From a virus (taxonomy: Duplodnaviria > Heunggongvirae > Uroviricota > Caudoviricetes), in the IMG/VR virus record IMGVR_UViG_3300035698_009402, positions 1 through 51,658 of that record: a stretch of DNA of 51,658 nt; one strand, given 5' to 3'. Within the stretch, counting starts at the first letter, position 1, and each line of letters opens with the position of its first letter. Below are positions 1 to 51,053 of the stretch, one piece after another. The position numbers and the translations under genes are program-made. The notes beneath the pieces were generated by a model. That model made no database searches. It had not been told where the DNA came from and was given only the letters and a program-made list of their open reading frames with translations.

Positions 1-1059
1 AGAGAAAGAAACGGTGAAGCACCTTTAACTAAATCTGAAGTAACAAAATTACTAGAAAAAGTTGCTGTTGAAAATCCAAAAGAGTTGGCTAATAGAGTAG
101 CTGCAGTTAAGGATAATATATCAAGTACAGGAAGAAATACTAGATTAGCAATTGATAATGAATTTAGTAATAAATCTGATATTAATAGTATCAATAAAAA
201 CTCTCTTTCCGAAAGGTTAATTTCTTTAGATGATATAGCTACAAAAGAAAATGATATAACTAAACGTAAAAACGCTTCTATAGATAAAGTACGTAGACTA
301 GAGATTAAAGCAATAGATCTAAAAGATAAAGGACTAGATAGAGAGTTAGATAGAACTGAAGAATCTTTCGCAGAAAGAGCAGTAATACTACAAGAAGATC
401 ATGAAATACAAATTCAAAATTTAGAAGTACAAAAACAAGCGGCCAAAGAAGCGTCTAATGTATTCCAAAGTCTTGGAAAGGCATTAGGTACTGATCTTAA
501 GGGAGCTTTTAGTGACTTTTTTAATACAGTATTTACAGAAGTTATTCAAGGTAGCAAATCCGTAGGACAGGCTTTTAGAGATTTATTCGGTAATATTCTT
601 ACTAAATTTATTGAAACTATTACTGATCAATTAATAGTTGGTCCTTTAGCTAAATTAGCAGGAGAACTAGCTGGTAATGCAGGTAGTTTTATTTCAAGTT
701 TCTTTGCCAGTGGTGGTCCTGTTAAAGGGTTTGCTAGTGGTGGGGTAGTTGAAAGCTTCGCTAGCGGGGGTATGAAGAGAGATAGTGTACCTGCGATGTT
801 AGAACCCGGTGAATTTGTTATGAGAAAAAGAGCTGTACAGCAAATTGGTGTAGGTAGTTTACGTCAAATGAATGAAGGAAACGGTGGTGGAGGTCAATCT
901 GTCCCCATAATTAATATAATTAATAAAGGAACCCCTCAGGAAAACGAAGGCCAGCCTAAAGTTGAATTTGACGGTAAGCAAATGATAGTAGATATTTTTA
1001 CTACAGATATGAGAAATAATGGACCTATGAAAAAGAGTATACAAGGATTAAGAAGATAA
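1..1059 (+). CDS. Tail tape measure protein, C-terminal part (5'-truncated by window edge)
   Basis: Frame 1 is open from base 1. Helical Ala/Glu/Lys-rich sequence ends in the typical TMP C-terminal block FASGG.V...RDSVPAMLEPGEFVMRK, directly upstream of distal-tail/tail-tip genes. Confidence 0.85.
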   Translation, partial: RERNGEAPLTKSEVTKLLEKVAVENPKELANRVAAVKDNISSTGRNTRLAIDNEFSNKSDINSINKNSLSERLISLDDIATKENDITKRKNASIDKVRRLEIKAIDLKDKGLDRELDRTEESFAERAVILQEDHEIQIQNLEVQKQAAKEASNVFQSLGKALGTDLKGAFSDFFNTVFTEVIQGSKSVGQAFRDLFGNILTKFIETITDQLIVGPLAKLAGELAGNAGSFISSFFASGGPVKGFASGGVVESFASGGMKRDSVPAMLEPGEFVMRKRAVQQIGVGSLRQMNEGNGGGGQSVPIINIINKGTPQENEGQPKVEFDGKQMIVDIFTTDMRNNGPMKKSIQGLRR

Positions 1060-2048: not shown

Positions 2049-3542
2049 ATGACAAGCAGAACTTATGATACCATACTAACTTTAGATAGCGTTGTAGGAT
2101 TTACACAAGGTAATAACATAGTAGGAATAGATACTTCTGCTGAAGGTATTATCGCTAATGTAAATATTCTTAACAACACTATAAAAGTTAAGTTAAATAA
2201 TACTTATCAACAGTTTGGTAATTCCGAACAAGTTCAAAGTACGGTAATTGCCTTAACTGTTGGGAGTGCTAATACTAATATACAACCTTTTGTACCTAGT
2301 ACATTCAATTCATCTACAGTTACTATAAGTGCTAATATTAGCAACACTGCCCCAAGCAACTACGTTGCTGAAAAGAACGCTTTTATTCAACAACCTTTAG
2401 TTCGTTTATATACTTTATATTACCCTGGAGAGTTCTACCCTCCTACTGTAGGAGATAACCCTAATGGGCCTGGGTTAGGATTAGCTTGGCCTGAAAGTAT
2501 TCCTTTTAGATTTGCAGAGGTTAGAGGGGATTTTTCTAGTGATGTAGGTTATAGAGTTACTTACGATGGAGTAGATTATACTCCTTATCCTGTAAATAGT
2601 GGTGGGATAGATATAAGTTCTGAAGGAGAAGTAGCAGAAACTACTATAACTTTATCTAATTTTGATAATGTTATAACTACCTTAGTAGAAGATCCATTTT
2701 TATTCGGTAATAATACTAGCAATAGTGTTACAGGTATAGTAAATGGAGAAACTTTAGGTAATATAGACCCAAGAACTAACCCTACTCACGTTAATTACGA
2801 CGCGACAGTAGCTTCTAGAAAAGGTGGAGATAATGTTGCTTGGAATTATTCAGATACTATAGCTTTTGGAGATACTTGGAAGCCTCTTAAGGGGGATACT
2901 AGAGATTTACTAGGTGGAGTAGTAGAAATTAAATCCACTTTTGCAACAATGATAGATTTCTGGCCTGAATATGGAATAGTAACTAGCGTAGCTAGTAACA
3001 GCGTTCAAATGACTAGTTCTTTACCATATAGAGTAGGAGATACCGTTAGAAGCAATGTAGATGCTCAAACATTTAGTGTACTAAACGTTTTTGATGATTT
3101 TGTAATCTTAGATAGCAATACTCCTAGCAGTAATATTTCTTCTGGAGATAGATTGTACATAATAAATGAAGATGCAGATACTGAAGCTTTTACTAAAGAT
3201 GTCTTTAAAATAGACAGTTTACAAGCATTAAATGAACAAGTAGGAATATTCAGCTTAACTAATTTCTTACAGTTTTTCAAGCTACAAGTACCTAAAAGAA
3301 AGTTTTTTAAGAACACATGTCAGTGGGTTTACAAAGGAGCTGAATGTCAATATCCAGATAATGGATCTGATACTATACCAGGAACTACTTTAACTGCTAA
3401 TGGTTTTTTTGATATTAATAATCAAACAGTATTTAGTGCAGAAGATGATGAATGTCCTAATAATAGACAAGCTTGTGCATTAAGAGGTAACCTTAGACAC
3501 TTTGGAGCTTTCAGCGGAACCGGTCGTACGATACCACGATAA
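2049..3542 (+). CDS. Minor tail tip protein, lambda gpL-like, probable Fe-S binding C-terminus
   Basis: YTPYPV and TITLSN motifs plus C-terminal KNTCQWVYKGAECQY...ECPNNRQAC...HFGAF with four Cys, as in the gpL family. Position between the M-like and K-like genes. Confidence 0.8.
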   Translation: MTSRTYDTILTLDSVVGFTQGNNIVGIDTSAEGIIANVNILNNTIKVKLNNTYQQFGNSEQVQSTVIALTVGSANTNIQPFVPSTFNSSTVTISANISNTAPSNYVAEKNAFIQQPLVRLYTLYYPGEFYPPTVGDNPNGPGLGLAWPESIPFRFAEVRGDFSSDVGYRVTYDGVDYTPYPVNSGGIDISSEGEVAETTITLSNFDNVITTLVEDPFLFGNNTSNSVTGIVNGETLGNIDPRTNPTHVNYDATVASRKGGDNVAWNYSDTIAFGDTWKPLKGDTRDLLGGVVEIKSTFATMIDFWPEYGIVTSVASNSVQMTSSLPYRVGDTVRSNVDAQTFSVLNVFDDFVILDSNTPSSNISSGDRLYIINEDADTEAFTKDVFKIDSLQALNEQVGIFSLTNFLQFFKLQVPKRKFFKNTCQWVYKGAECQYPDNGSDTIPGTTLTANGFFDINNQTVFSAEDDECPNNRQACALRGNLRHFGAFSGTGRTIPR

Positions 3543-3994
3543 TGAATATACCATATTACAATGAGAAATGGGGATTACCAATGGGTACTATTTTACAAAA
3601 TACTGTTCCTAAGTATCTAGGAATAAAACACGAATATGATGGAAATAATTGTTTATCTATAATTTTTGATTTTTATGAAAAAGAATTAGGAAAATCATTA
3701 AAAGATACTTTGTCCAGAGTAGATACAGATTTAAAGGTAGATAAGAAATGGTTTACCAAATTTACTACAAATGTTGTGTCAGAGGAATCTAAATATTTTA
3801 AACAAATAAGTTTGGTAGATTTACATAACTTTGATATACTAGTATTTAAAGATGGAAAAGGAAGAGTTAATCATTTCGGTATGTATGTAAATTCATTACA
3901 ATTTTTACATTTACCTGAAAATAGTTATTCTTCACTATCACCATTGGATGATTATTGGAGAAATAGACTATATGGATGTTACAGAAAAGTATAA
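3542..3994 (+). CDS. NlpC/P60 family peptidase (tail assembly, gpK C-terminal-like) #1
   Basis: YLGIKH...NNCLS (Cys), DILVF...NHFGMY (His), FLH (His): complete Cys-His-His triad. Confidence 0.8.
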   Translation: MNIPYYNEKWGLPMGTILQNTVPKYLGIKHEYDGNNCLSIIFDFYEKELGKSLKDTLSRVDTDLKVDKKWFTKFTTNVVSEESKYFKQISLVDLHNFDILVFKDGKGRVNHFGMYVNSLQFLHLPENSYSSLSPLDDYWRNRLYGCYRKV

Positions 3995-4424
3995 AAAATA
4001 CTGCAATAAAAAATATAAACATTTAGGTAATGATATTGTATTAGGAATAGATTGTGTTAATTTAGCATTATACGTATTGAAAAAAGAATTTAATATATCT
4101 CGAAATTATACTACTAAAGATTTTTGCACTATGGAAGGCAATTGGTATAATGACGTAGATAGCGTAAAAAATAATCCATTAGGTAATTTTAGTAACCTTG
4201 AAAACGGGTGGGTTCCTGTAAGTAAAGACAGTTTAAAAGAGGGTGATATTATTATTATAACCATAGGTAGTAGTAATATACCCAACCATTGTGCCTTATA
4301 TTTAGGAAATAATAAAATATTAATGATATTAGAAGGGAAGAGAAGTTATATTGGAACTTATGGAAGTACTTATAAACAATATACCAATCAGTGTTACAGA
4401 TGCAAAGAATTTATGAACAATTAA
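3972..4424 (+). CDS. NlpC/P60 family peptidase #2
   Basis: YKHLG...GIDCVNL (Cys), EGDIIII...PNHCALYLG (His). ATG 3972 chosen because GGAG lies upstream; the track start is 3948. Confidence 0.8.
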   Translation: MDVTEKYKKYCNKKYKHLGNDIVLGIDCVNLALYVLKKEFNISRNYTTKDFCTMEGNWYNDVDSVKNNPLGNFSNLENGWVPVSKDSLKEGDIIIITIGSSNIPNHCALYLGNNKILMILEGKRSYIGTYGSTYKQYTNQCYRCKEFMNN

Positions 4425-4789
4425 AAACAGATATGGGCATGCACGCTCAAAGTAGTTACCCTTTAGAGAGTTGTGGTATTATAACTAAAGATTTTAAATA
4501 TATAAAATGTGATAATGTATCTAGTGATCCTAAAAACAGTTTTATTTTAGATCCTTTAGCTCTATATAACTATGAAGATGATATATGGGGTATAGTACAT
4601 AGTCATCCAGGAGATGAAAATCCTATTCCTAGTGACGAAGATGCTCCTAGTACTGTATTTACAGAATTTAAATTCTTAGTAGGATTTGCAAATAAATACT
4701 TTATATATTGGAGACATACTAAATTAAATACTTTAATATACGAACCCTTTGAGGAAAAACATTTAAATGAAGACTATCCATTTTCATAA
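4400..4789 (+). CDS. JAB/MPN (Mov34) metalloprotease, gpK N-terminal-like
   Basis: YPLESCG (catalytic Glu) and IVHSHP...PSDED (HxH...SxxD) JAMM motif. Confidence 0.9.
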   Translation: MQRIYEQLKTDMGMHAQSSYPLESCGIITKDFKYIKCDNVSSDPKNSFILDPLALYNYEDDIWGIVHSHPGDENPIPSDEDAPSTVFTEFKFLVGFANKYFIYWRHTKLNTLIYEPFEEKHLNEDYPFS

Positions 4790-5456
4790 AAGTTTACGTC
4801 AGTATACTAATAATCATGAGTGTATAAATGTAGATGTAGTAACTTATTACGATTTAATAAAAGCTACTATGGATTTATTTAAAAAATTCAATGATCTTAT
4901 AGTTAGAATGGGTACTCATAATAATGCAGAATTAGCTTTAGTAGTTGATGGTAAATTGTTAAATATAGGCAATTTAATGATGCCTGCTACTGGAAAAGAG
5001 ATTAAATTAGTTCCTATTATTAAGGGTAGTGGTAGAATAGGTATGATAATAGCGGCTATAGCTATAGTTGCTTTAATTATCGTTACAGGGCAAGTAGAAT
5101 TATTACCTGCGTTAACGGTTATATCAGGGGCTACAGGTAGTATCGGTGCTGCTGCATTAGCAGGAGGTACTGTAATCAGTCTTACGACTATTGGACAGTT
5201 AGCTTTAGGGATTGCAGCTAGTTTATTTTTATCTGCCTTGCAACCAGCTCCTAAGCCTCCTAGATTTGAAACTTCTACAGGAGGGTTTCGCAGAGATAAT
5301 GATGCATTTGGATCATTAACTAATACAGTTGATAGTTCTATATCAGTACCTTTAAATTATGGAGAAATTCGAACTGCAGGACATCTTTTAAGTGGGTTTG
5401 TTAAAACCATAGATCACGGAAAAGAAGATATAATAGAAGTATCGGATCAATTTTAA
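4767..5456 (+). CDS. Tail assembly protein I-like (ubiquitin-like N-domain) paralog 1
   Basis: Ubl-like N-terminus ending LVPIIKG-SG, then a hydrophobic Gly/Ala-rich segment, then C-terminal VPLNYGEIRTAG, matching lambda gpI architecture (IVPRVAG...LPVLYGE). Confidence 0.85.
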   Translation: MKTIHFHKSLRQYTNNHECINVDVVTYYDLIKATMDLFKKFNDLIVRMGTHNNAELALVVDGKLLNIGNLMMPATGKEIKLVPIIKGSGRIGMIIAAIAIVALIIVTGQVELLPALTVISGATGSIGAAALAGGTVISLTTIGQLALGIAASLFLSALQPAPKPPRFETSTGGFRRDNDAFGSLTNTVDSSISVPLNYGEIRTAGHLLSGFVKTIDHGKEDIIEVSDQF

Positions 5457-6179
5457 ATGAGAGTAAAAATACATTTTCACAAATTAATTCAACCTTATAC
5501 TAGAGATTTACCTTCTATAGAAATAGAGGTAGATGATTTACATAGTATTTCGTTTGCTATAAATACTTATTTCCCTGAATTAATACAACATTTTATAAAT
5601 GAATCTACATTAGTAGAAAATAAAACTCATAATGACTTTTTATTAATACTGGATAAAGATAAAAAAATGCTTAATGAAAGTAGAATGTTAAGAAATAATT
5701 TAAAGCCTAATGAAGATGAATTTTATATTCTTCCTTGTATATGTGGAAATGGTAACGGTAAATCTGCTATATTAATAGGTGCGCTAGTATTAGCTACAGC
5801 ATTTTTTGCTATACCTGCTATAGCAGGGGCAGGGGCAGGAGCTATAGGAAGTCTTAGTGGTTTTAGTAGTGTATTATCTTCTGGGTCAGTATTGGGATTT
5901 TTAGGTAAAGCTGTAGTAGGGTTTGGGCTAAATCTTATATTAGGTGGAATACTTAGTTTAATTAACAAACCCCCTGAATTAGGTAATCAAGAAACAGATT
6001 CCGATAGTAGAAATAATGACAGCTTCGGTCCTTTAGTGAACAGTACTGATAGTAGTAATTTAATACCTTTAAATTATGGAGAAATAAGAGTAGCCGGACA
6101 GTTGTTGAGTGGATTTTTAAAAACAATAGACCACGGTAAAGAGGATATAATAAACGTAAATGACCAGTTTAGCGCATAA
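5457..6179 (+). CDS. Tail assembly protein I-like paralog 2
   Basis: Same architecture: ILPCICG-NG, hydrophobic segment, IPLNYGEIRVAG...KTIDHGKEDII, nearly identical to the paralog 1 C-terminus. Confidence 0.85.
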   Translation: MRVKIHFHKLIQPYTRDLPSIEIEVDDLHSISFAINTYFPELIQHFINESTLVENKTHNDFLLILDKDKKMLNESRMLRNNLKPNEDEFYILPCICGNGNGKSAILIGALVLATAFFAIPAIAGAGAGAIGSLSGFSSVLSSGSVLGFLGKAVVGFGLNLILGGILSLINKPPELGNQETDSDSRNNDSFGPLVNSTDSSNLIPLNYGEIRVAGQLLSGFLKTIDHGKEDIINVNDQFSA

Positions 6180-9099
6180 ATATTACCTTAATATAAAAAA
6201 CAAGCAAGTTCCGTTAATATACGGAGGAAAAGGTTGTTTTGTAGCAGGAACTTTAATAAAGACTCCTACAGGGTATAAAAAAATTCAGGATATTAAAAAA
6301 GGAGATTTAGTATCTTCTTTTAATTCCGACGGTGTTGTTACTTCTAATAAAGTAACAACTACTTTTATGCATAGAGGAATTCAAGATACTATAAAATTTA
6401 CTTTATGGAATAAACAAGTTATAGAAGTTACTCCTAATCATTGGATGTTAACTCCCGATAATAAATTTATGGATGCATGTATGTTCGATGAAGGAGATTG
6501 TTTAGTAGATATTTTTGGCAATTTCGTATCTATAGTAAAAAAGGAAATTAAAAAAGCTAGAATAACCTTTAATTTAACTGTTGAAAATAATCACACATAT
6601 ATAGCTAACGATATATTAGTACATAACAAAGGTGGAAATAAAGGAGCAGCTACGGGGGGCGTAGAAAGCCCTAATAGTCTATTTTCTACTGATATATTAT
6701 TCTTAACTATAGGGTTAGGAGAAGGTCCTGTATATAGAGTTAATCCTAATGGTCCTCAAGATATAGAATTTAATGAAAGTAATATTGATGATTTTATAAC
6801 TGTTGACGGTGTAGAAGATACTGAATTTCTAAAAACTTTAGTTAATACTGGTACCTTAAGTCAGGACCCTCTTGAGGTCTTCGGAGATGAAGTTGCAGTA
6901 CCACAATCATTTTCCAGTCCTATAAGTTTAAAAAACGGAAACGTAGAAGGAATACCAGAAAACAAGGTATTTCTACAAAACACTAGTGTTGCAGAAGTTC
7001 ATAGATTAAGATTCAATTTTGTACTTGGAGGATTATTACAAGTTAATGATAAAGGAGATATATTTGCTACGTCTGTAAGCGTAAAGGTAGATATATTCGA
7101 TAGAACAGGCACAACTTTATTACTTACTAAAGAATCTACTATAGAAGGAAAGACCAATACAGATTATAGATTTCAGTTAGACTTAACTATTCCGGAAGAA
7201 GATAGATCCGTCAGTGGTCATAAATTTACTATTACTAAAACTAGTTTAGATAGTGAAGATAGTAGAAATAGAGACGACGTTCAAGTAATTGGTTGGGATG
7301 AAATAACCAATGATGATGTATCTTATATAAAAACAGCAGTTATCGGGTATGCAGTAAAAGCTAGTTCGGACTTCAGAGGCGGAATACCTACTATTACTAC
7401 TTTAGAAAAAGGATTAATAGTAAAAACACCTAGTAATTATAATCAACCTATATTAGAAAATGGTGAAATTGATTGGAGAGAGTTAGAAGTAGTAGATGAT
7501 GATGGAGCCTCAGATACTAATAGCTATCAATCTGCAGGATATAGATTACAAAATTCAGGTAGTACAATATTAACTGCCGATGAACCTGAAATATATAAAG
7601 GTATATGGGATGGAAGTTTTACATTTAGTTGGACTCAAAATCCCGTGTGGATATTATATGATTTATTAACCAATACTGTTCACGGATTAGGCATTCCCGA
7701 AGAAAACATTGATAAATATAAGTTTTATAAAGTATCTCAGTATTGTGACGCAGTTGATAGTGCTACAGGTAAATTTGTAGGAGTTAGAGGGTATGCTGAT
7801 GGAACTTTTAGACATAAGCCTTTAGGAACTTTGACCGGCGTTAGAAATGTATTAATAGGTTTAAATGAAGGTATTGAAGTATTAAATAGAAGATTTACCT
7901 GTAATGTAACCATCAGCTCTCAGGAACAAGCTTTTCAGACTATACAAAAAATTGCTAGTGTATTTAGAGGAATATTATTCTATAGTGGTGGTAAGATTAG
8001 CTTAAACGTAGATATGCCTGATGAATTACCAGTAGCTACTTTTTCGGAAGCTAATATAGAAAAAGATAGTATAAGTATTTCTGGTATAAGAGAGAGTGAA
8101 ATCATAACTGGAGTAGAAATAGCTTACATAGAGCCTAATAATCACTTTAGAAGAGAATTAGTGCGAATTAATGATCCAGATCTATTAAGAGAACAAAATC
8201 ATATAGAAAACGTAGCTACAGTAGAAGCTACCGGATGTACAAGACGAAGCCAGGCAATCAGATTTGGACAATATTTTCTAGCAAATAATAAATATGTTAG
8301 AAGAAAAGTAACTTTTAGAACAAATATAGCAGGAATAAATTTAAGTGTAGGTGATGTTATAAGCGTATCTAACAGAATGCCGGGCACTGCTTGGGGTTAT
8401 GCTGGTAGAGTTGCTAGTAATGCTACGGTTAGTACTAATAACGTATTTTTAGAGCATTTTACAAGTCCTGCAATATCAGAATCTACTTTTTCAAGCAATA
8501 CTAATCCTTTAGCATTAAGATTAGTTAACTTACAAAGCGATAAAATAGATTTGTTTATTTTAGATAATAACTATACTACTGCTGCTAGCGGTAATGCGGC
8601 CAATGGTATAGATCTAATAGAAGTTCAGACTAGTCTAAAATTTGATGATGCTACTAAAACATTTGGTAGTAGTAATGTAGCTTTTAATATTCATAATACA
8701 CCTATAAAAGGTGATTTATGGACTTTAGGGGAAATAGACCCTACTAATTACTTAAGCAATCTAGGTGATAAACTATTTAAAATTACTAATATACAAAGAG
8801 ATGAAGATGAGAAAATTAATATAGCAGCTAGTGAGTATATATCTAATGTATATACAGATAGTGATAGTTTAATTAACTATGTACCTGTTAAATACACTGA
8901 TATTATTAGTCCGTTAGTTAAACCTCCTTCACCTATCTTAAGATTGAGCAATCAGCCAAAAAGGCAAGAAGATGGTAGTATAGGATATGATATTCACGTA
9001 TCTGCTACTACAGATACTTCTAGTTATCCTATTCAGATTACTACTGAAATAGAATACGCTCAATCTTCCGAGTTTAGAGAAATAGAAGAAATATTATAA
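6160..9099 (+). CDS. Central tail/host-specificity protein J-like, N-terminal part, with Hint domain
   Basis: GLGEGPV, WTQNPVWILYDLLTN, YCD, CTRRSQAIRFGQY and VGDVISV motifs typical of gpJ-like tail tip proteins. Confidence 0.9.
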   Translation: MTSLAHKYYLNIKNKQVPLIYGGKGCFVAGTLIKTPTGYKKIQDIKKGDLVSSFNSDGVVTSNKVTTTFMHRGIQDTIKFTLWNKQVIEVTPNHWMLTPDNKFMDACMFDEGDCLVDIFGNFVSIVKKEIKKARITFNLTVENNHTYIANDILVHNKGGNKGAATGGVESPNSLFSTDILFLTIGLGEGPVYRVNPNGPQDIEFNESNIDDFITVDGVEDTEFLKTLVNTGTLSQDPLEVFGDEVAVPQSFSSPISLKNGNVEGIPENKVFLQNTSVAEVHRLRFNFVLGGLLQVNDKGDIFATSVSVKVDIFDRTGTTLLLTKESTIEGKTNTDYRFQLDLTIPEEDRSVSGHKFTITKTSLDSEDSRNRDDVQVIGWDEITNDDVSYIKTAVIGYAVKASSDFRGGIPTITTLEKGLIVKTPSNYNQPILENGEIDWRELEVVDDDGASDTNSYQSAGYRLQNSGSTILTADEPEIYKGIWDGSFTFSWTQNPVWILYDLLTNTVHGLGIPEENIDKYKFYKVSQYCDAVDSATGKFVGVRGYADGTFRHKPLGTLTGVRNVLIGLNEGIEVLNRRFTCNVTISSQEQAFQTIQKIASVFRGILFYSGGKISLNVDMPDELPVATFSEANIEKDSISISGIRESEIITGVEIAYIEPNNHFRRELVRINDPDLLREQNHIENVATVEATGCTRRSQAIRFGQYFLANNKYVRRKVTFRTNIAGINLSVGDVISVSNRMPGTAWGYAGRVASNATVSTNNVFLEHFTSPAISESTFSSNTNPLALRLVNLQSDKIDLFILDNNYTTAASGNAANGIDLIEVQTSLKFDDATKTFGSSNVAFNIHNTPIKGDLWTLGEIDPTNYLSNLGDKLFKITNIQRDEDEKINIAASEYISNVYTDSDSLINYVPVKYTDIISPLVKPPSPILRLSNQPKRQEDGSIGYDIHVSATTDTSSYPIQITTEIEYAQSSEFREIEEIL
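6235..6627 (+). other. Hint (intein-like/BIL) domain, 131 aa, no homing endonuclease
   Basis: Begins CFVAGTLI (block A, Cys1), has VTPNHWML (TxxH block B), and ends FNLTVENNHTYIANDILVHN. The +1 residue is Lys, not Cys/Ser/Thr. Confidence 0.9.
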
Positions 9100-12000
9100 T
9101 GGCATTTAAAAGATTTTCCACAAGCAACGTAGATTTTACCTCAAATGGTGTTTCTGCTATACTAACAGGTAAAAACGGTTTCATAAGTAGAGCTGGGTCT
9201 ATTCCTGTGCTTATAGAAAGTGTTAGTATTATAGATTCTAGTAGTAATTTAGAACTTACTGCTAATAATATGAGTATGTTATATGATAATAACTTTAGTA
9301 ATCATGTATTAGAAGTTAATGATGGATTTTTTGCGGGGTTAAAAGGATTTGATAGTATAGGACTACCTGTAAATCAAAAAGCTAATAGTTTTAGCGATTT
9401 TGGATTTGTAGGATTTAACACTACTATTACCCAAATTTCTAGTAATATACTTATCCATAGTTTAGCAAATAATACTGTTGTAGTAGAAAATACTCTTACA
9501 GGAAGTACTAGATTGGTAGATAAATTACCTGCCACTCCTTTTTATGCATTATTACCTCAAATAATAGATACTAGATATTTCTCTAGTAAAGAATTATTCA
9601 TAAAAGGTACTAGTTTAGTAAAACAGAGATATCACAATGTTAATTCTGTGGCTAGTAGTTATATTGCAGATCTAGGAGTAGTCCCTAGAACTAAAAATGA
9701 AATTATGGTATGGCTTGATGGTATTGAGTTAGCTGCTAGTAATTATACTTGGGATAATTTATCTAATGTAACTTTATCTTTGTTAGATAACCAATTATTA
9801 AGAACAAGAGTTAGTACTTATACAGTGCCTAAAGTAGAGCAGGGGGATAATATATCCTTTTTTGCAGATAATACTTATAGTGTTGCTAATGTTTTTTATG
9901 ATATAGCAGATGGTAGTAGTAATACTTCTTTAACTGATAATCATTTTTATAAGATTAAATTAGGAGAAGCTATAAGGGCTAATGTTAGTGGAGTAAGTTT
10001 TACTAATAAAACATTAGATATCGAAGGAAAAATAAATAATGTTTATGCAAGTAATAATAGTTTTACCTTAGATTATAATGACGCCGCCTATCCTAGTAAC
10101 TATAGGTTATCTAATAATAAATTATATAGCGTACAGAGTGCATTAAGCTTCACTCCTATTACCTTAGGATCAGATAAGGTAATAAGAGGAGTACCTGTAG
10201 GCTTAAATTTAGTAAGAGCTAGAAACAGAAATAGTCAAGCACGTGTAAGTGATACTATTACTGAACAGGTATTTATTGATCAAATACCTATTAGAAAAGT
10301 TACTGATATATCTATAACCGAAAGTTTATTTGTTGACACTACACAAGGTGTATCGGTTAGAATAAGTATTTCTTTTAATGCAATACAAAATCAAGAAGTT
10401 ACAGACTATGAATTAAGTTATAAACTTAATAATTTAAGTGGAGATTTAAGTAGTTTTAATACTGTTAAGCTTCCTTCTTCAGGTATAGGATCAGACGGTA
10501 AAATACGTTTTACTATAAATAATATAGATAGAGGTGCTAGTAGTGCTACTAACGAGATAACTGTAAGAGTAGTTCCTTTAAATAGAAGTATAAGAGGAAT
10601 AGTTAATGAAGTTACTCAAGAAATTATAGGAAAATCTTCAAGCCCTAATGCTGTAGAAACTATATCAGGAGGTCAACAGGGTGAAAATATAATTTTAGCC
10701 TGGTCTTTCGTTACTAACTCTGATGGTACTGTGGCAGACTTAGATCTACAGGAAACTTTAATAAGAAAAATATCAGGAATTATTACGGAAGCAGATGCTT
10801 TAGATAATTGGAATATAGCCTCTACAGTAGCTAGAGTAGCTACCCCTGCTACTAGTATTGTATTAAATATTTCTACTTTCGATATTACGGAAACTTATCT
10901 ACTTAGAGCTAGAGATACTTCAGGAAATGAGAGTGATGAGGTAAAAGCTTTAACTATTACAACTTTTAAACCCGCTAATTCAGAGGTTTTTAAAGTGTAT
11001 AGTGAAGATGCTCCTTCTGTTAGTGTAATAACGGGTATTACTAATGATAATTCTACAGAAAATAATTATCCTAGTTTCTCCGATAGCACTACTGGAGGAA
11101 TAGTAGTTAGTGGTCACAGTTATGCAGATTTATCTAACGGCACAAGCTCTGGATGGACTAGTGTTACGGAGCCTACAGATTTATCTGCGGCGGGCTCTTC
11201 CGCTTTTTATCAAACACAGGTAAGAGATATAGGAGTTTCTGCTACAGGAATAGTAACTATTCGAGCAAATGGGATTAGCACTACAGCTAGTACTTGGAAT
11301 AGTTTATTAAGCAATGTATTAACGGGGGTTACTGAAGCAGGTAGTTCTAATAATGTATTTGTAGATTCTGATTTCGGAGGTATAGGTACGATACTAGGGT
11401 TTAGTAATATAAATGCTGCTACTGTTACTTATGATACTAATAATGGAACTTTAATAAGTGGCGGGTCCTCAGGAAATGTATACGCTATATGGAATTACGG
11501 ACAATTTTCTGGAGACGGAAGTAATGCTAACAGTTTTGCTTTAATAGCAGGTACTGTAGACGCAGATACTATAGAATTAGGGTCTACTTACTATGCTAAC
11601 GGAGAACCTACTGGTTCTAATAATTTTACCAATTTAAATAGTTCCACTAGTTATGCTTTAGTAGATTTAGTACAATACGTAGATGATACTGGTAGTATAA
11701 ATTTCTTAGGACCTAATGAAGCTGTTACTAGCAATATATTAATAAGGTATTCTGAAACTAGTCCTTACGATGCTAACGGCAATGTAGATATAGGAGTATT
11801 TTCTGCAACTCCTAGTACAGATAGTAATGGGTGGAAAAACTATACAGGAGTTAAAAGAACTTTTAGATATTTTCAATTAAAATACCAATTATTTAATAGT
11901 TCTCCCGCTCAAGCAGATTTCGTATTAGATAAGTTTAATTATTTAGTAGATTTAGAAGATAAAATATATAAAGAAAAAATAGACGTTTCTACTACTCCTT

Positions 12001-12191
12001 ATTCTGTGGATTATTCAACAGAAGGTTTTATATTACCCCCAGTAATTAGTATGGTAGTAGAAGGCGATGATAATTTAGTACCTGTAGTAATAGCACCAGC
12101 TACTGCAACTAGTGCAGATATAAATGTATATAATAATGTAGGAGTAGCACAATCTAGTATTAATGTGTACTTCGTAGCAACGGGAGTTTAA
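9099..12191 (+). CDS. Tail tip protein, gpJ C-terminal-like (FN3-type domains)
   Basis: TAATG-coupled to the J N-part. FN3-like segments (VRARNRNSQ, ITVRVVPLNRS, YLLRARDTSGNES); C-terminal FRYFQLKYQL...DLED segment typical of J C-termini. Confidence 0.7.
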   Translation: MAFKRFSTSNVDFTSNGVSAILTGKNGFISRAGSIPVLIESVSIIDSSSNLELTANNMSMLYDNNFSNHVLEVNDGFFAGLKGFDSIGLPVNQKANSFSDFGFVGFNTTITQISSNILIHSLANNTVVVENTLTGSTRLVDKLPATPFYALLPQIIDTRYFSSKELFIKGTSLVKQRYHNVNSVASSYIADLGVVPRTKNEIMVWLDGIELAASNYTWDNLSNVTLSLLDNQLLRTRVSTYTVPKVEQGDNISFFADNTYSVANVFYDIADGSSNTSLTDNHFYKIKLGEAIRANVSGVSFTNKTLDIEGKINNVYASNNSFTLDYNDAAYPSNYRLSNNKLYSVQSALSFTPITLGSDKVIRGVPVGLNLVRARNRNSQARVSDTITEQVFIDQIPIRKVTDISITESLFVDTTQGVSVRISISFNAIQNQEVTDYELSYKLNNLSGDLSSFNTVKLPSSGIGSDGKIRFTINNIDRGASSATNEITVRVVPLNRSIRGIVNEVTQEIIGKSSSPNAVETISGGQQGENIILAWSFVTNSDGTVADLDLQETLIRKISGIITEADALDNWNIASTVARVATPATSIVLNISTFDITETYLLRARDTSGNESDEVKALTITTFKPANSEVFKVYSEDAPSVSVITGITNDNSTENNYPSFSDSTTGGIVVSGHSYADLSNGTSSGWTSVTEPTDLSAAGSSAFYQTQVRDIGVSATGIVTIRANGISTTASTWNSLLSNVLTGVTEAGSSNNVFVDSDFGGIGTILGFSNINAATVTYDTNNGTLISGGSSGNVYAIWNYGQFSGDGSNANSFALIAGTVDADTIELGSTYYANGEPTGSNNFTNLNSSTSYALVDLVQYVDDTGSINFLGPNEAVTSNILIRYSETSPYDANGNVDIGVFSATPSTDSNGWKNYTGVKRTFRYFQLKYQLFNSSPAQADFVLDKFNYLVDLEDKIYKEKIDVSTTPYSVDYSTEGFILPPVISMVVEGDDNLVPVVIAPATATSADINVYNNVGVAQSSINVYFVATGV

Positions 12192-12194
12192 TAA

Positions 12195-13445
12195 ATGGTA
12201 TCAAATACATTCGCAACACCTTCAGCAAGCAAGGCTATAAACTTAGCTAGAATAGATTTTAATGAATCTATTAAAGCTACAGTAAGTAATTTTTATGGCC
12301 CTAGTTTTCCTACTAGTGCAGATGTAACTATTCTAGGGAGTGCTACAGCGCCGTTAGATGGAACTTTACATAGAAATTTACATACAGGAGTGCTTTATAT
12401 AAAAGATACTGCTAATGCTAAGGGATTATCTGGAGATTTTACTACTAATGGTATAGGAAGCAGAATAATAGAAAGTTTAGCTGATTATTTTGGGCAAGAA
12501 TCTGGGTTTGAGTTAGGTGAGCTATTTAAAACAGTTGGCGGAAACTCTAGAATATATATGAAAACTAGCAATAGTACTGGCGACAGTAGTATTACTGATT
12601 TAGGTATACCTCCGGAAAACGAGTCTATTACTGCGGGAATGCTAGGCAGTGGAATAGTAAACGGATTAAAAGTTGGTAGTAATGTATCCGTTTTTGAAAG
12701 AAACGAAGTATTTACCGGGCAAAAGGAATTTAAAGGTAATACATTAATAGTTAGTAACACTGATGCTAGCGCTTCGAGTGGTCCAGATTTAGAATTATTT
12801 AGAAATAGTGCTAGCCCTGCTGACGCAGATTTAGCTGGTAGAGTTATTTTTACAGGAAAAGATAGTGGTGGGGATAATGTTGTTTATGCCTCTATAAGTA
12901 CAATATTAAATGACGTAACTGCTTCACAAGAAGACGGCGAATTATTAATTCAACTAATGAACGCAGGTACTTTAAATAACGTAATTCATTTAATTACTGG
13001 AAATATAATGGCATATTCCAATTTAGTATTATCCGATACAAGTAATATATATTCTTCTGAAAATTTTGGAGTATATATGAGTAATACCGCAGCTATAAGC
13101 TTAGATAGTGGTAGACAACATACAATTCAACAATCCTTCAATACGGCTAGTTTATCCGATGGAGCTAATATTTCTTGGAATTTAGATAGTGAACAAGTTT
13201 CGGAAGTTACTTTAGCAGGTAACAGAACTTTGGATAATCCTACTAATATGAAAGATGGCGGAACTTATATAGTAAGAGTAAGACAAGATGGAACTGGGTC
13301 TCGTACCTTAAGTTTTGGTAATGCTTACAAATTTGTGGGAGGTATTTCCCCTACCTTAAGTACTGATGCTAATGCTTTAGACATACTTAGTTTTACTAGT
13401 AATGGTAGCGCTATGTTAGGGGTAGGGTTAATAGGTATAGCGTAA
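12195..13445 (+). CDS. Tail fibre protein
   Basis: C-terminal LSDGANISWNL...VTLAGNRTL.NPTN...IVRVRQDGTGSRTL...DILSF domain, commonly seen at phage tail fibre C-termini; tail context. Confidence 0.7.
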   Translation: MVSNTFATPSASKAINLARIDFNESIKATVSNFYGPSFPTSADVTILGSATAPLDGTLHRNLHTGVLYIKDTANAKGLSGDFTTNGIGSRIIESLADYFGQESGFELGELFKTVGGNSRIYMKTSNSTGDSSITDLGIPPENESITAGMLGSGIVNGLKVGSNVSVFERNEVFTGQKEFKGNTLIVSNTDASASSGPDLELFRNSASPADADLAGRVIFTGKDSGGDNVVYASISTILNDVTASQEDGELLIQLMNAGTLNNVIHLITGNIMAYSNLVLSDTSNIYSSENFGVYMSNTAAISLDSGRQHTIQQSFNTASLSDGANISWNLDSEQVSEVTLAGNRTLDNPTNMKDGGTYIVRVRQDGTGSRTLSFGNAYKFVGGISPTLSTDANALDILSFTSNGSAMLGVGLIGIA

Positions 13446-14155
13446 TGTTAACTTTTTTCTTTTCAGGGAATACTATCCTTAATGTAATAATATCTAGTAA
13501 TGATACTGACGTAAATTTAAGAACTTTAGTAGATTCTTTAGGTTATTTAGCTGCATCGCATACTGTAGTTAATATTACTATTAATTCTGGAATTGTTATA
13601 GGAGCTACTTCTACTAGTAATCCTGCTATTACTACGGGCAGTTTTCCTGCAGGTACTTTAATTAATCTTATAAATAATGGAATAATTGCAGGTAAGGGTG
13701 GCGCAGCTAGTTCTGGAGGAGTTCCTTTTGGATCGGATGTTGCGGGTCAGAACGGGTTTTCGGGCGGAGTAGCTCTAGAAGCTACTAACGCTATTACTGT
13801 TACAAATAATAATATTATTGGTGGCGGCGGAGGTAGTGGCGGTGGAGGAGCTGGAGATTACATTTTTATAGACAAAGGAAGTCAACAAAATTATAATGGA
13901 GGATCCGGAGGAAGCGGGGCTGGTTATACTAATACAGGATCAGCAGCTACGGAAACAGGGGCTGCAGGCGTAGCAGGACAAGTTAGTGCAGGAGCCGGCG
14001 GAGCGGGCGGAGATTTAGGAGATAACGGTACCGCAGGTACTGCGGGCAATTCTAGCCAGCCAGGCGGTTCTGGAGGTGTTGCAGGATTAGGCGTATCTGG
14101 TATATCTTTTGTAACTTACGCAGTAGAAGGAAGTATTTTAGGAGGCACAAGTTAA
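13445..14155 (+). CDS. Glycine-rich tail-associated protein
   Basis: INNGIIAGKGG and GGGGGSGGGGAG tracts; coupled to the tail fibre gene by TAATG. Confidence 0.6.
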   Translation: MLTFFFSGNTILNVIISSNDTDVNLRTLVDSLGYLAASHTVVNITINSGIVIGATSTSNPAITTGSFPAGTLINLINNGIIAGKGGAASSGGVPFGSDVAGQNGFSGGVALEATNAITVTNNNIIGGGGGSGGGGAGDYIFIDKGSQQNYNGGSGGSGAGYTNTGSAATETGAAGVAGQVSAGAGGAGGDLGDNGTAGTAGNSSQPGGSGGVAGLGVSGISFVTYAVEGSILGGTS

Positions 14156-14346
14156 TGATAATAGAAATTGATAATAAATTTACTACTACTGACGTTATTA
14201 GGAAGGGTATTATACAGAATAAAGAACAATTAGATGAATATATTAAATATAGAAGATCACTTAATTATAAACCTATAATTAGTAAATTACAGTTTCCAGA
14301 TAAAAAATACTGTTATCATAATACTTATGAAGAGGTTACGGTATAA
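14155..14346 (+). CDS. Hypothetical protein (63 aa)
   Basis: TAATG overlaps at both ends; GGAGG upstream. Confidence 0.6.
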   Translation: MIIEIDNKFTTTDVIRKGIIQNKEQLDEYIKYRRSLNYKPIISKLQFPDKKYCYHNTYEEVTV

Positions 14347-14843
14347 TGGATAGATGGGTTAATACTTTTTTTGTAGAAGAAAATATAATGCTTACTGAAT
14401 GGCAATATCGAAAAAATACTATTGATTATGGAAACTATTTAAGAGACATACCTGCTTTAACGATTCCAGATACTTATATTTATATATCCAAGGGTGGATA
14501 TACTAGATTTAATTGTAATAATATAGAAGAACCTGCGTTTACTGAAAAAACGTTAAATAGTAAATATAACTATCCTATAAGTAAAGGATTGTATACTTTT
14601 AAAATGACACAAGAAACACATAAATGGTGTGTTTCAAAAAATAATTTAGATAATTTAAAAGTAGCTTTTTATACCGATACTGCTGTATCTTTATCGAAAG
14701 GCTTCATTTTTATACTAGAGGGAATTCTTGCTATAAACGGTATTAAGTACAATAAATATACAAAAGTTAATATTTCAAAAAATATTAATTTGAATATAGA
14801 CAAAAACTGTGATATAGTACACATAATTAATAATGGTAACTAA
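14346..14843 (+). CDS. Hypothetical protein (165 aa)
   Basis: TAATG coupling, GAGGT upstream, fills the gap before the next gene. Confidence 0.65.
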   Translation: MDRWVNTFFVEENIMLTEWQYRKNTIDYGNYLRDIPALTIPDTYIYISKGGYTRFNCNNIEEPAFTEKTLNSKYNYPISKGLYTFKMTQETHKWCVSKNNLDNLKVAFYTDTAVSLSKGFIFILEGILAINGIKYNKYTKVNISKNINLNIDKNCDIVHIINNGN

Positions 14844-17800
14844 AACAACTAATAATATAATCAATAATAATACAGTAATGTCTAACCACTATCAAATAGA
14901 ACAGATAGAGGATAGACATTTAGTGTCTGCGTTATTTAACAATGTTAGTTTAGGAAATAACAATTCATGGGTTAATAGTAATGATTTTGTTACATATACC
15001 CTATTAAATAGCAATATCAATTTAACAGAGAGTAATCTTACCGCTTTAATAAAGAATTTTAAAAATAATATTCAATTTACTACTAATTCTTTTTTTAGTG
15101 ATGGGTCAAATGTATTTATTTTAGATAACGCTGCATTAAATGACTTGTCAATAGATGTTTATATTAATGGGTCTAGACAGTCTAATACTGATTGGGTATC
15201 TCATAGTAATAATACTGTTCAATTTAAAGACGATATCCCTGCTAATACTAGTATAGATTTAAAATATATTATAGAAGCACCTAACGTAAAAGTAGATAGT
15301 GATTTAATATATGACTTAAGTGAGAGATATGCAGGTAAAATTTTAGGTAGTACTTCTAAACCTAACTTCTCCATTAATTTTGAGAAAGTAAATAACTCAG
15401 AAACATTGGTTACCGCTGTTCAAAGTGCTGAAACATATACTATAAATGCTAAAAGAGAATTAGAAAGAGTTCCACCGAACACACCTCGTGTGTACCACGA
15501 GCCTAGCACAGGTAAAAGACTTGGAATACTTAGCGAACCTGATAGATATAATTTCTGGCTTGATTCAAGTAATGTGTTGGCTAATACACTTATGTATCGT
15601 ACTGAAGGGACAGGTACTATTAGTGGTAATGTTGCTGAAGCTCCTGACGGTAGTGATAGTGCTTTTTCTTTTATACCTGATACAGATACAGCTACTCATG
15701 CTATTACTATGCATAGCACGTATAGCCCTGGTGTAGGGGATATGGAGTATATAGTAGATATTTTTGTTAAAGACGCTGGATATTCTAATTTTGGACTAAG
15801 AGTATTTGATGATTCTGTTAATTACTTTTTAAGAGCAACTGCAAACCTAGCTAATGGCACAGTATATAATCAAGAAGCGGGTTCTTGGAATATAGATAAA
15901 TTATCTAATGGATGGTTTTGGATTCAGGGGGCTGCTACTCCCACTGCAGGATTCGTATCTCTTTCTGTTAATTTTGAAACACTGCCTGGCGGTGAAATAG
16001 TTCAAGCTAGTTTTCCTGGAGATGGAATTAGTGGTATGTATTTTTGGAAACCTAGAATATCTGCGGGTAATACTGCTTTTATGCCTATTATATATGAAAA
16101 TGATACTGATAATAGTATAATACAAGCCGATAATGTACATTTTGATTTTAATGATTTAGTATCTACAGAAGATAGTGTATACAGAATTTCATCTGTAAGT
16201 ACCTCTACAAATGGTAGTACTGATACTAAAATATTAGATTTAGTAACTGATGATTTTAATGTAATAGTATCTAGTAATATTGTAGGAAGTGTTAGTTATA
16301 GTAATTCATACACATCAACATTAGTTTTAAATGATAGTAATACTACTGCCACCTATAATACCGATTCTAGTAATGTTTTAGCTTTTTATAACAATAGCTC
16401 TGAAAATATAACTAAAGGCAAATTAGGTAGTAATGTTGTACTAAAAAGTGTTGAAGTGTGGAACAAAGAAAAAGATTATGCTAATGCTTATAATATAACT
16501 AATAATATACAAAATCTTCAAACTAGTGATAATTTAATTTTTGATATTACTACTATAGCTGATAGTGAATCTTTTGTGTTACCTGTTATAGGTGGTCAAC
16601 CTTATAATTGTACTATTTCTTGGGGGGACGGTATAAGTAATGTCTGTACTTCTTCTAGTGATAATACTACTCATACTTACGATACTGAAGGTACCTACAG
16701 AATAAACATTGAAGGGGAGTTTGCAGCTTTAAGATTTAGTACTTTAACTACTAGTAGAGATAGAATGACCAGAGTATTAAATTTAGGAAATGTTTCAGCT
16801 ACTTATTATGAATCCATCTTTTATTTATGTTCAAACTTAAAAGAGGTTACAGTAGGTAATGCTAATACTGATTTAGTTATTAGCGGAATGGATTCTTTTG
16901 TTAGTGGATGTTCTGAATTAGAATATTTAAATTTACAAGGATTAGATACTACTCATATGACTACCTTTTCTAGTACTTTTAGAGATTTAGATAAAATAAA
17001 ATATATAGATGCTTCTAATTTAAATACTAGTAATGTAACTTCTATGTTTTATACTTTTGGATATGCTTATGCGGCAGAAAATATAAAAGTAGATAACTGG
17101 ATTACTAATAATGTTACTGATATGACAGGAATGTTTTATGAATGTAATAGCATAGAGAATTTAAATTTATCTAGTTTCAATACTCAAAATGTTACTCATA
17201 TGTCTAGTATGTTATCTCATTGTTATGATGTTTTATCTTTAGATTTAACCAGCTTTATTACTCCTAGTCTAACTAATATGGCAGCAATGTTTAGAAATTC
17301 TAATAGTTTGGTTACTGTAGATGTGTCTAATTTTGTAACTAATAATGTTACTGATATGAATCATGCTTTCGAATCTTGTAAAGCTTTAACTACTGTTGTA
17401 GGTATTGAAAATTGGAATACTTCCAATATTACAAGTTTAGCAGCTTTTGTAAGAAATTGTTCTGAATTAGTTAATTTTGATATTTCTACGATGGATACTT
17501 CCAAAATAACTAGTTTAAATAGTTTTGCAACTCAAGATATACTTTTAGAAACTATAGACATGTCTATTGTTACTAATAATGTATCTGATATGGCTGTTAT
17601 GTTTGATGGTTGTGCTTCCTTAACTACTGTAACCGGTAGTGAAGATTGGAATAATTCTAATGTTACATCTATGGGTTACATGTTTAGAAATTGTACTTCT
17701 TTAGAAACTTTAGATATTACCAACTGGGATACTGTTAAAGTAACTACTTTCATTAGTACATTTTATAATTGTAGTAGCTTATCTAATATAGATCTAAGTG

Positions 17801-18426: not shown

Positions 18427-18602
18427 TGGCCATATTGAATAAAGTTCAAGGAATTTTTATAATTAATGGAGAATTATTAACTGTTTCCTCCAACAGTATG
18501 ATAAGCTATAGACATGATGCTATAGTAGAAGAATTTAATACTTACGAAGAAGCTTTACAAGAGCATAAAAATAGGTTTCCAGAAGCCTATTTAGAGGGAT
18601 AA
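18426..18602 (+). CDS. Small hypothetical protein (58 aa)
   Basis: ATG overlaps the upstream stop (TAATG) and GGAGG lies upstream; the track start is 18396. Confidence 0.6.
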   Translation: MAILNKVQGIFIINGELLTVSSNSMISYRHDAIVEEFNTYEEALQEHKNRFPEAYLEG

Positions 18603-18605
18603 CCA

Positions 18606-47816: not shown

Positions 47817-48133
47817 TAACTAAAGCTACTTCCACAACCACAAGTATTAACAGCCTTTGAATTACTAATTTGTATAGATTTATATATCTCGTTCCCTGTA
47901 TAATCAATTATACAATCTTTTAAAAAAGATAAGCTACTTTCATCAGTAATAATTTTTAAAGATTCGTCAATGAATATATAATCTTCTAATTCATCTACTA
48001 AAGAAAATTTATACTGAAATCCGGCGCAACCTCCGGTTACTACTTCTATGTTCATATATTGGTTTAATTCTAAACTAGATATATAAATTTTAAATTTACT
48101 AGTTAATTTAGGTAATAACATTTCTTCTGACAT
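47816..48133 (-). CDS. iscA: HesB/IscA A-type Fe-S cluster carrier
   Basis: GGCAGFQY and CGCGSSFS: all three conserved Cys present. Confidence 0.9.
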   Translation of the reverse strand: MSEEMLLPKLTSKFKIYISSLELNQYMNIEVVTGGCAGFQYKFSLVDELEDYIFIDESLKIITDESSLSFLKDCIIDYTGNEIYKSIQISNSKAVNTCGCGSSFS

Positions 48134-50071: not shown

Positions 50072-50079
50072 AGTATCTA

Positions 50080-50838: not shown

Positions 50839-51053
50839 GTGTATTTGCTATATTTTACTAATAAATGTATTACTACTAACAGTAGTGTAATAGGTATTAA
50901 TAATATTGTTATAGCAAATATACATAATCCTAAAAAACATATAAATACAAATATTAAAAAAGTATCTATTAAATTTGTCTTTTTATTAGGTTTAACGTCT
51001 ATGTTTTCTAAAACCTGTCTCAGCTCAGAATCATCCATAGTATTCACTACCAA
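50814..51053 (-). CDS. Small membrane protein (79 aa)
   Basis: Long hydrophobic stretch; co-oriented and overlapping both neighbours. Confidence 0.55.
   Translation of the reverse strand: MVVNTMDDSELRQVLENIDVKPNKKTNLIDTFLIFVFICFLGLCIFAITILLIPITLLLVVIHLLVKYSKYTWRKIWPK

What the first reader, a model, noticed from the sequence alone, without database searches (positions are those of the whole stretch)
3542..6660. Doubled ubiquitin-like tail-tip processing module: 2 NlpC/P60 + JAB + 2 gpI-Ubl, with a matching cleavage-like motif on gpJ
Seen: instead of one gpK (JAB+NlpC/P60) and one gpI, there are two separate NlpC/P60 genes (one Cys-His-His, one Cys-His with Met at the third position), a standalone JAB, and two gpI paralogs with divergent Ubl domains but near-identical C-termini. 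Each Ubl ends P-x-I-x-G (VPIIKG|SG, LPCICG|NG). The J protein begins with a 22-aa leader ending VPLIYG|GKG. Known: lambda gpI has a Ubl domain ending IVPRVAG, gpK is JAB+NlpC/P60, and lambda gpJ starts MGKG. Inference: one JAB could process three substrates (I1, I2 and the J leader, exposing a lambda-like GKG N-terminus), and the two NlpC/P60 enzymes may each pair with one Ubl. That would be a phage Ubl-type maturation or ligation cascade that may build two tail-tip variants or a heteromeric tip.
Basis: partly seen in the sequence, partly recalled or inferred. Interest (0 to 1): 0.75.

Follow-up and report, generated by a model that had tools for sequence, protein, structure and literature searches.

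The report
Twin tail-plug genes sharing one protease
A group of uncultured aquatic phages keeps two old copies of the lambda-type tail-plug gene whose docking ends evolve in step, and its central tail fibre starts with a short tag that mimics the plug's cleavage site; the trimming chemistry is already known from lambda, but the twin plug and the fibre tag were not found in the papers searched.

Summary
In detail: two NlpC/P60 genes, an intact JAB, two gpI genes with ubiquitin-like (Ubl) caps, and a gpJ leader ending P-x-I-x-G. It is a variant of the lambda gpK/gpI/gpJ module; gpK cutting gpI's Ubl was predicted in 2006 and reported for lambda in a conference summary.

Three additions. (1) The gpI duplication is old. 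In 12 genomes the Ubl domains sort by paralog, while the hub-binding C-termini sort by genome, so both proteins probably fill the same tip sites. (2) The gpJ leader is not special to this phage. It occurs in 75/75 clade N-termini and in T1-like, N15-like and cyanophage gpJ. It persists with JAB where NlpC is absent, and it docks in the JAB active site in a model (0.63; best control 0.02). Cleavage is unproven: an F-pyocin structure retains residues before the site. (3) An A-type Hint domain follows the leader.

NlpC-Ubl pairing fails its own test: two NlpC with one gpI is the commonest layout. No E1 was found, so ligation is unsupported. This scan noted related K/I and Ubl-gpJ cases on other DNA.

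The parts
2049..3542 (+). gpL-like hub protein (context)
   Evidence: Pfam Phage_tail_L E 3.6e-22
3542..3994 (+). NlpC/P60 paralog N1, Cys37-His111-His123
   Evidence: dN/dS 0.50 vs L103
3948..4424 (+). NlpC/P60 paralog N2, Cys36-His114-Met126 (Gln/His in most relatives); start may be 3972
   Evidence: dN/dS 0.29
4391..4789 (+). Stand-alone JAB/JAMM metalloprotease (probable start 4400)
   Evidence: Prok-JAB E 6e-8; motif intact in all 23 aligned homologs; dN/dS 0.12
4767..5456 (+). gpI paralog I1: Ubl aa 1-87, hydrophobic helices, C-terminal hub-binding arm
   Evidence: phrog_32; lambda gpI 8iyk_I E 1e-5; beta-grasp model
5013..5027 (+). I1 predicted JAB site P83-x-I-x-G87, cut after G87
   Evidence: G invariant in 36 clade gpI motifs
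5457..6179 (+). gpI paralog I2: Ubl aa 1-97, hydrophobic helices, C-terminal arm homogenised with I1
   Evidence: phrog_32; beta-grasp; trees
5733..5747 (+). I2 predicted JAB site P93-x-I-x-G97
6160..6225 (+). gpJ 22-aa leader that mimics the last Ubl strand (P18-x-I-x-G22)
   Evidence: 75/75 clade J; docks in JAB active site in model; dN/dS 0.09 over 25 codons
6235..6627 (+). A-type bacterial intein-like Hint domain in gpJ (Cys1, TxxH, His-Asn; -1 Gly, +1 Lys)
   Evidence: PT-HINT E 6.5e-11; BIL 2LWY E 7.7e-13; conserved in about 26 J homologs
6628..9099 (+). gpJ hub/central-fibre body (first half of a split J)
   Evidence: phrog_31 E 1.6e-113; T1, pyocin and lambda J structures

Best explanation
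This is a lambda-type tail-tip maturation module in a distant T5-like aquatic phage clade. gpK is split into a stand-alone JAB and two NlpC/P60 genes, and gpI was duplicated long ago. Step 1 (shown for lambda; inferred here, about 0.9): I1 and I2 are made with soluble Ubl caps, dock on the gpJ/gpL hub by their C-terminal arms, and the JAB cuts each cap after the P-x-I-x-G glycine as an assembly checkpoint. Step 2 (inferred, about 0.6): the two arms are kept alike in every genome, so both proteins fill the same three hub sites, most simply as a mixed plug trimer; their different Ubls may set the order of addition. Step 3 (binding about 0.75, cutting about 0.55): the J leader copies the Ubl's last strand and is engaged by the same JAB. 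Step 4 (about 0.85): the Hint excises itself, mainly by C-terminal Asn cleavage, leaving J starting K-G-G like other J proteins. The NlpC/P60 pair is unrelated to gpI copy number; my best guess (about 0.35) is processing of the hydrophobic gpI helices or the tape measure protein.
For: Lambda gpK cleaves the gpI Ubl after gpI joins the tip (PMC12908700; predicted in PMC1779556), and the F-pyocin homolog loses its N-terminal domain. Beta-grasp folds of both caps; intact JAMM motif. The Ubl tree separates I1 from I2 (1 change, 95/91, 100% of bootstrap trees), while the C-terminal tree needs 10 changes and largely pairs paralogs by genome. Over the last 30 aa, paralog identity (0.70-0.93) equals or exceeds the best ortholog in 12/12 genomes, and L275 shows 182/195 identical bases. 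Both genes are under purifying selection. J and gpI share V/I-P-x-I-x-G. P1 is Ala in both proteins in Webervirus and Gly in both in sister L240. The leader stays where NlpC is absent. Leaderless J of L278/L279 begins at the predicted site; lambda J also lacks the leader. ESMFold2 JAB + J(1-27): 0.63 vs best control 0.02 (mark reached by 51 of 78 solved and 2 of 108 mismatched pairs; runs agree in at least 81% of contacts; partner pLDDT at least 62), with G22/G23 touching H67, H69 and D81. A-type BILs mostly cleave (PMC4031507).
Against: No experiment exists on this phage. The F7 pyocin fibre was modelled from residue 5 (PMC12874032), while the matching site in the F2 sequence is G7|H8; if the numbering carries over, that leader survives in mature particles. 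The Hint would drop the leader anyway, so a JAB cut looks redundant here. The docking pass may come from memory of solved JAMM-Ubl complexes, and the 27-aa partner is below the calibrated size. The Webervirus co-change, the NlpC-less lineage and the leaderless J are single events. Homogenised arms fit alternative homotrimers or a placeholder equally well. All solved plugs are homotrimers.
Confidence: 0.6

Rival explanations
1. The J leader is bound but not cut. It is a structural N-terminal strand, or a docking tag that brings the JAB to the growing tip so that gpI is cut only after assembly. In this phage it is lost, or rejoined, only through the Hint.
For: F7 pyocin model includes residues before the site. 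The N-terminal region of lambda J packs with the gpL Fe-S domain (PMC10721106). Lambda cleavage is assembly-gated. Splicing of the Hint would rebuild an x-K-G-K-G-G linker like that of Hint-free relatives L049 and L064.
Against: Invariant P1 Gly with a small P1' in both substrates; the model puts the G22-G23 bond at the metal ligands; natural leaderless J start at the site.
Confidence: 0.35
2. I1 and I2 form alternative homotrimeric plugs (two tip variants with different membrane helices), or one is a transient placeholder that holds the hub site until the other replaces it.
For: Shared arms with divergent caps and helices fit this too; solved plugs are homotrimers.
Against: The genes are adjacent and abut (stop directly followed by start), with no switch element noticed. 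Like arms in one cell should mix. In the L070/L079 lineage I2 lost a hydrophobic helix while I1 grew, keeping the summed linker length (169-172 aa) within the 157-217 range of the others, which suggests a shared lumen; this is one lineage only.
Confidence: 0.3
3. One reading: each NlpC/P60 serves one Ubl, and the module ligates proteins ubiquitin-style.
For: All two-gpI genomes of this clade also have two NlpC-slot genes; papain-fold enzymes can transfer acyl groups (own knowledge).
Against: 2 NlpC with 1 gpI is the commonest layout (14 of 23); 0 NlpC with Ubl and leader intact; 2 gpI with one fused gpK in L198; no E1 in the 115.7-kb genome, with controls positive; the Ubls are N-terminal caps on structural proteins.
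Confidence: 0.05
4. The second gpI is a recent or redundant duplicate without function.
For: Most lambda-like tips manage with one gpI (159 of 161 loci).
Against: Kept in at least 12 genomes, some with J N-terminal regions only 42-57% identical; separate Ubl lineages; dN/dS 0.28-0.37.
Confidence: 0.07

Closest known systems
Phage lambda gpK (JAB + NlpC/P60) / gpI (Ubl + plug) / gpJ; TAPK/TAPI/TAPJ of Iyer, Burroughs and Aravind 2006 (PMC1779556)
   Same: Gene order L-K-I-J, JAMM motif, beta-grasp cap ending in Gly, hydrophobic helices, C-terminal arm (8iyk_I E 1e-5); Ubl removal by gpK reported (PMC12908700).
   Different: gpK split into three genes with NlpC doubled and placed before JAB; two old gpI paralogs; J has a leader plus a Hint and is split into two genes; T5-like replication backbone (polymerase about 41% identical to its best cultured hits, mostly 106-118 kb enterobacterial phages).
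T1/Drexlerviridae, N15-like phages and F-type pyocin tips (PMC11945409, PMC12874032, bioRxiv 10.64898/2026.02.24.707460)
   Same: J begins with a short hydrophobic-x-Gly leader before x-K-G-G, like their gpI site; plug N-terminus removed in the pyocin.
   Different: One gpI, fused gpK, leader usually much shorter, no Hint; the pyocin model suggests its leader is retained.
A-type bacterial intein-like (BIL / PT-HINT) domains, e.g. PDB 2LWY
   Same: Cys1, TxxH, C-terminal His-Asn, no +1 nucleophile.
   Different: Sits in a virion structural protein directly behind a protease site, with fixed Gly(-1)/Lys(+1) in this subclade.
Bil anti-phage system (E1, E2, Ubl, DUB; bioRxiv 10.1101/2023.09.04.556158)
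   Same: Ubl, a deubiquitinase and the central tail fibre are involved; the authors speculated that tail DUBs are anti-defence.
   Different: No E1 here; the Ubls are caps on structural proteins, and the JAB has its own phage-encoded substrates.

Membership tests
Lambda/T1 TAPK-TAPI-TAPJ tail-tip module | gpI with N-terminal beta-grasp domain ending in a conserved Gly | tested here: met
   (both paralogs)
Lambda/T1 TAPK-TAPI-TAPJ tail-tip module | gpI hydrophobic helices plus C-terminal TAPI-C arm | tested here: met
   phrog_32; 8iyk_I alignment; hydropathy
Lambda/T1 TAPK-TAPI-TAPJ tail-tip module | Adjacent JAB protease with intact JAMM motif | tested here: met
Lambda/T1 TAPK-TAPI-TAPJ tail-tip module | JAB and NlpC/P60 fused in one gpK (typical, not universal, per PMC1779556) | tested here: not met
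   three separate genes; hence filed as a variant
Lambda/T1 TAPK-TAPI-TAPJ tail-tip module | Order gpL - K - I - gpJ | tested here: met
Lambda/T1 TAPK-TAPI-TAPJ tail-tip module | JAB-dependent removal of the Ubl | not testable with these tools
   reported for lambda only (PMC12908700)
A-type bacterial intein-like domain | Hint fold with Cys1, TxxH and terminal His-Asn | tested here: met
A-type bacterial intein-like domain | No Cys/Ser/Thr at +1 | tested here: met
   +1 is Lys in 25 homologs and Gly in the sister group
A-type bacterial intein-like domain | Self-cleavage or splicing activity | not testable with these tools
   inferred from residues and PMC4031507
Canonical intein | Cys/Ser/Thr at +1 | tested here: not met
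   Lys157 follows Asn156
Prokaryotic Ubl conjugation system (Bil-like) | E1 (ThiF) enzyme encoded | tested here: not met
   0 matches in the genome; control rang in 12 of 14 genomes
Prokaryotic Ubl conjugation system (Bil-like) | E2 enzyme encoded | tested here: inconclusive
   no match, but the controls were silent too

The most novel reading that the evidence does not exclude
gpK-type JAB proteases have a second, overlooked substrate across most lambda-like tails, a Ubl-tail-mimicking leader on gpJ that lambda itself lacks. In this clade the tip plug is also an obligate I1/I2 heterotrimer whose two Ubl caps set the order of assembly, and the fibre matures by a JAB cut plus Hint self-excision.
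Probability: 0.3. Interest if true: 0.72.

Novelty: new variant of a known kind. Interest (0 to 1): 0.5.

Why it matters
The core chemistry is known. Two points would be new. First, if the gpJ leader is a JAB substrate or docking tag, it explains how gpK is timed to act only on assembling tips. That can be tested at once in T1, N15 or a Webervirus, where a Gly-to-Ala change at P1 in both proteins predicts a specificity swap. Second, two plug paralogs with separate Ubl lineages but arms in concerted evolution point to a heteromeric plug at a three-fold site, whereas the solved lambda-like tips I read about have a homotrimer. The clade also offers natural variants (0, 1 or 2 NlpC; with or without Hint; with or without leader) for finding what the NlpC/P60 half of gpK does, which none of the papers I read settles.

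Tried and rejected
Co-duplication of NlpC and gpI: rejected. Cys-His-Met as a special active site: rejected; Gln, His, Asn or Met occur there. An invariant C-G-N motif in I2: it held in the first 7 sequences but not in more distant ones. Recent gene conversion as the sole cause of the similar C-termini: clear only in L275; in this window 16 of 26 shared residues use the same codon and in L272 8 of 26, so selection or old conversion is involved. Full Ubl-gpJ fusions (lead from e1-5376139): none among the 13 longer hits checked from the best 150 of a 1.84-billion-protein profile search; those were gpI with C-terminal extensions. tblastn of I2 and N2 against cultured phages: no match. E2 searches uninformative. 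T1 gp33 is modelled from residue 13, which fits either outcome. No RNA holder listed. One search had parsing errors and is replaced; the L002 linker value is a regex error and was not used. Literature searches found no paper on a gpJ leader, twin gpI or a Hint in gpJ, but the library lacks most subscription papers.
Full report
Context. The window is bases 1-51,658 of a 115,658-bp virus record rated complete; the best-matching runs are salt-lake metagenomes. Its DNA polymerase is about 41% identical to its best cultured hits, mostly 106-118 kb enterobacterial phages, which I recognise as T5-like (own knowledge), and the replication gene order also resembles T5 (own knowledge). The tail tip, however, is lambda-like: tape measure, Dit-like gene, gpL, N1, N2, JAB, I1, I2, gpJ.

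Observation. Every element is present at the stated coordinates. Both gpI N-terminal domains were modelled (pLDDT about 76-91 over most of the domain), and their top structural matches are MoaD, CysO, SAMP1 and ubiquitin. The JAB has the full JAMM set. All genes are under purifying selection against the relative L103 (dN/dS 0.09-0.50). Contigs of separate runs bridge the I1/I2 and leader/Hint junctions. One correction matters for the mechanism: after the leader and G-K-G comes a Hint domain (aa 26-156), closest to the bacterial intein-like domain 2LWY, with Lys at +1.

What is already known. Iyer et al. 2006 described this gene trio and predicted that the JAB releases the gpI Ubl at its last Gly (PMC1779556). 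A 2025 conference summary reports that lambda gpK does so, and only after gpI has joined the tip complex (PMC12908700). In F-pyocin the plug's N-terminal region is removed before the tip joins the tube. Mature gpI is a trimeric plug whose C-terminal arm adds beta strands to gpJ and whose hydrophobic helices probably enter the outer membrane (PMC10721106; PMC11101478). JAB action on I1 and I2 is therefore expected, not new.

Test of NlpC-Ubl pairing. Among 80 related viral loci, the 23 non-redundant ones (window included) with gpL in view are 14 with two NlpC and one gpI, 5 with one and one, and 4 with two and two. A further lineage has no NlpC between gpL and J: none was called in L278-L280, and profile searches of 17 loci gave 0 hits; it keeps the JAB, the Ubl site and, in most members read, the J leader. 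Two N15-like prophages carry tandem gpI genes, L198 with one ordinary fused gpK. The Ubl and the leader follow the JAB, not the NlpC count. The Met in N2 is a local change. No E1 is encoded, so there is no basis for a ligation cascade.

The gpI duplication. All eight divergent Hint-bearing J homologs that I traced to contigs have two NlpC-slot genes, a JAB and two gpI-sized genes; for the seven with DNA, both are gpI. Across 12 two-gpI genomes the Ubl tree separates all I1 from all I2 (1 change, support 95/91, 100% of bootstrap trees), although paralogous Ubls are only 21-40% identical: one old duplication. The C-terminal 60 residues give the opposite picture, 10 changes with paralogs largely paired by genome; an I2 clade was already rejected in the smaller set (p-AU 0.005). 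Over the last 30 residues the paralog is at least as close as the best ortholog in 12 of 12 genomes (0.70-0.93 against mean ortholog values of 0.38-0.58). L275 shows recent conversion (182 of 195 bases), whereas this window and L272 keep amino acids but not codons. Inference: both arms must fit the same site on that genome's hub, so both proteins are real tip components. Co-expressed proteins with like arms should mix, and in the L070/L079 lineage I2 shrank by one helix while I1 grew. I therefore put a mixed plug at about 0.6, and alternative homotrimers or a placeholder at about 0.3. Tandem gpI is rare elsewhere: 2 of 161 loci.

The gpJ leader. In the clade, 75 of 75 distinct J N-termini carry the motif (P5 Pro 94%, P3 Ile 94%, P1 Gly 100%), matching the gpI profile at P6, P5, P3 and P1 (the regex fixes P3 and P1, so the informative figure is presence, against 2 of 104 ORFs of this genome). 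A shorter form, hydrophobic-x-Gly before x-K/G-G-G, is in all 13 cultured phages checked and in every J N-terminus seen in N15-like, Webervirus and cyanophage S-CBS4-like loci. In Webervirus P1 is Ala in both gpI and gpJ, while sister L240 has Gly in both. L278/L279 J lacks the leader and its Met aligns just behind the predicted site; lambda J also starts there. ESMFold2 docks J(1-27) on the JAB with score 0.63 against a best control of 0.02 (mark reached by 51 of 78 solved and 2 of 108 mismatched pairs; runs agree in at least 81% of contacts; partner pLDDT at least 62). J19-23 lies along JAB 47-50, and G22/G23 touch H67, H69 and D81. This may reflect memory of solved JAMM-Ubl complexes, and the peptide is below the calibrated size. 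Against cleavage: the F7 pyocin fibre was built from residue 5 at 2.9 A (PMC12874032), upstream of the G7|H8 site in the F2 sequence; I assumed the same numbering. So recognition is likely (0.75) and cutting is open (0.55).

The Hint. It occurs in the two-gpI clade (+1 Lys, -1 Gly) and in a sister group with one gpI (+1 Gly); one origin is compatible with the J tree but weakly supported (84/67). A-type BILs mostly cleave and can splice by aminolysis (PMC4031507). Cleavage leaves J starting K-G-G; splicing rebuilds the linker seen in Hint-free relatives. Either way the product resembles an ordinary J. That the leader stays conserved even where the Hint could discard it suggests the leader acts before release, for example by bringing the JAB to the tip.

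Verdict. A real, conserved variant of the lambda K/I/J module. Shown here: the anatomy, the old duplication with concerted evolution of the arms, the breadth of the J leader, and the failure of NlpC-gpI co-duplication. Inferred: JAB cleavage of I1 and I2, a mixed plug, JAB recognition of the J leader and Hint self-excision. Novelty: new variant of a known kind; interest 0.5. Earlier notes of this scan cover the ordinary K/I pair (e1-426861) and a Ubl on gpJ in other marine phages (e1-5376139); I found none on twin gpI.

Noticed in passing
L014:214-1503, L023:2736-4037, L033:2423-3607, L270:628-1809 and others: A radical SAM gene (Pfam Radical_SAM, with SPASM in L270) sits between gpL and the first NlpC gene in many relatives, next to the gpL homolog (Fe-S-binding in lambda); absent from this window.
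   Followed up: partly
L278, L280, L282-L295: A lineage with no NlpC/P60 whose gpI also has a polar stretch in place of the hydrophobic helices and whose tape measure protein is over 3,100 aa (L278, L280): a lead that NlpC function is tied to those helices or to the tape measure protein. One event only.
   Followed up: partly
window 9099-12191: Second half of gpJ as a separate 1030-aa gene; fused to the first half (about 1,870-2,140 aa) in many relatives.
   Followed up: partly
window 85-1059: The tape-measure C-terminus has three F-A-S-G-G repeats (aa 207, 216, 225 of the ORF). Lambda gpH is cut in a Gly-rich C-terminal region by an unknown enzyme; a speculative NlpC/P60 substrate.
   Followed up: no
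L197:1877-3077 and L198:1844-3077: Independent tandem gpI duplication in N15-like prophages, both copies full length.
   Followed up: partly
L275:2916-4496: Both gpI paralogs share a Ser/Thr-rich C-terminal extension with a long run of identical DNA (182/195 bases): recent gene conversion.
   Followed up: yes
proteins P0115, P0086, P0147, P0195: gpI relatives with 150-440 aa C-terminal extensions, one with a LamG domain, so the gpI C-terminus may reach the tip surface and carry adhesins.
   Followed up: partly
L079:5539-9000, L070:5545-8742, P0011: Longer gpJ alleles (1,065-1,268 aa) with further insertions, possibly more intein-like elements.
   Followed up: no
window 13445-22631: Fibre/adhesin block: gp38-like adhesin (13445-14155), DUF285-repeat protein (14833-18426) and a 1341-aa repeat protein without Pfam match.
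   Followed up: no
window 48108-51652 (- strand): Cluster with a GT4 glycosyltransferase and other apparent sugar-modifying genes that continues beyond the window.
   Followed up: no
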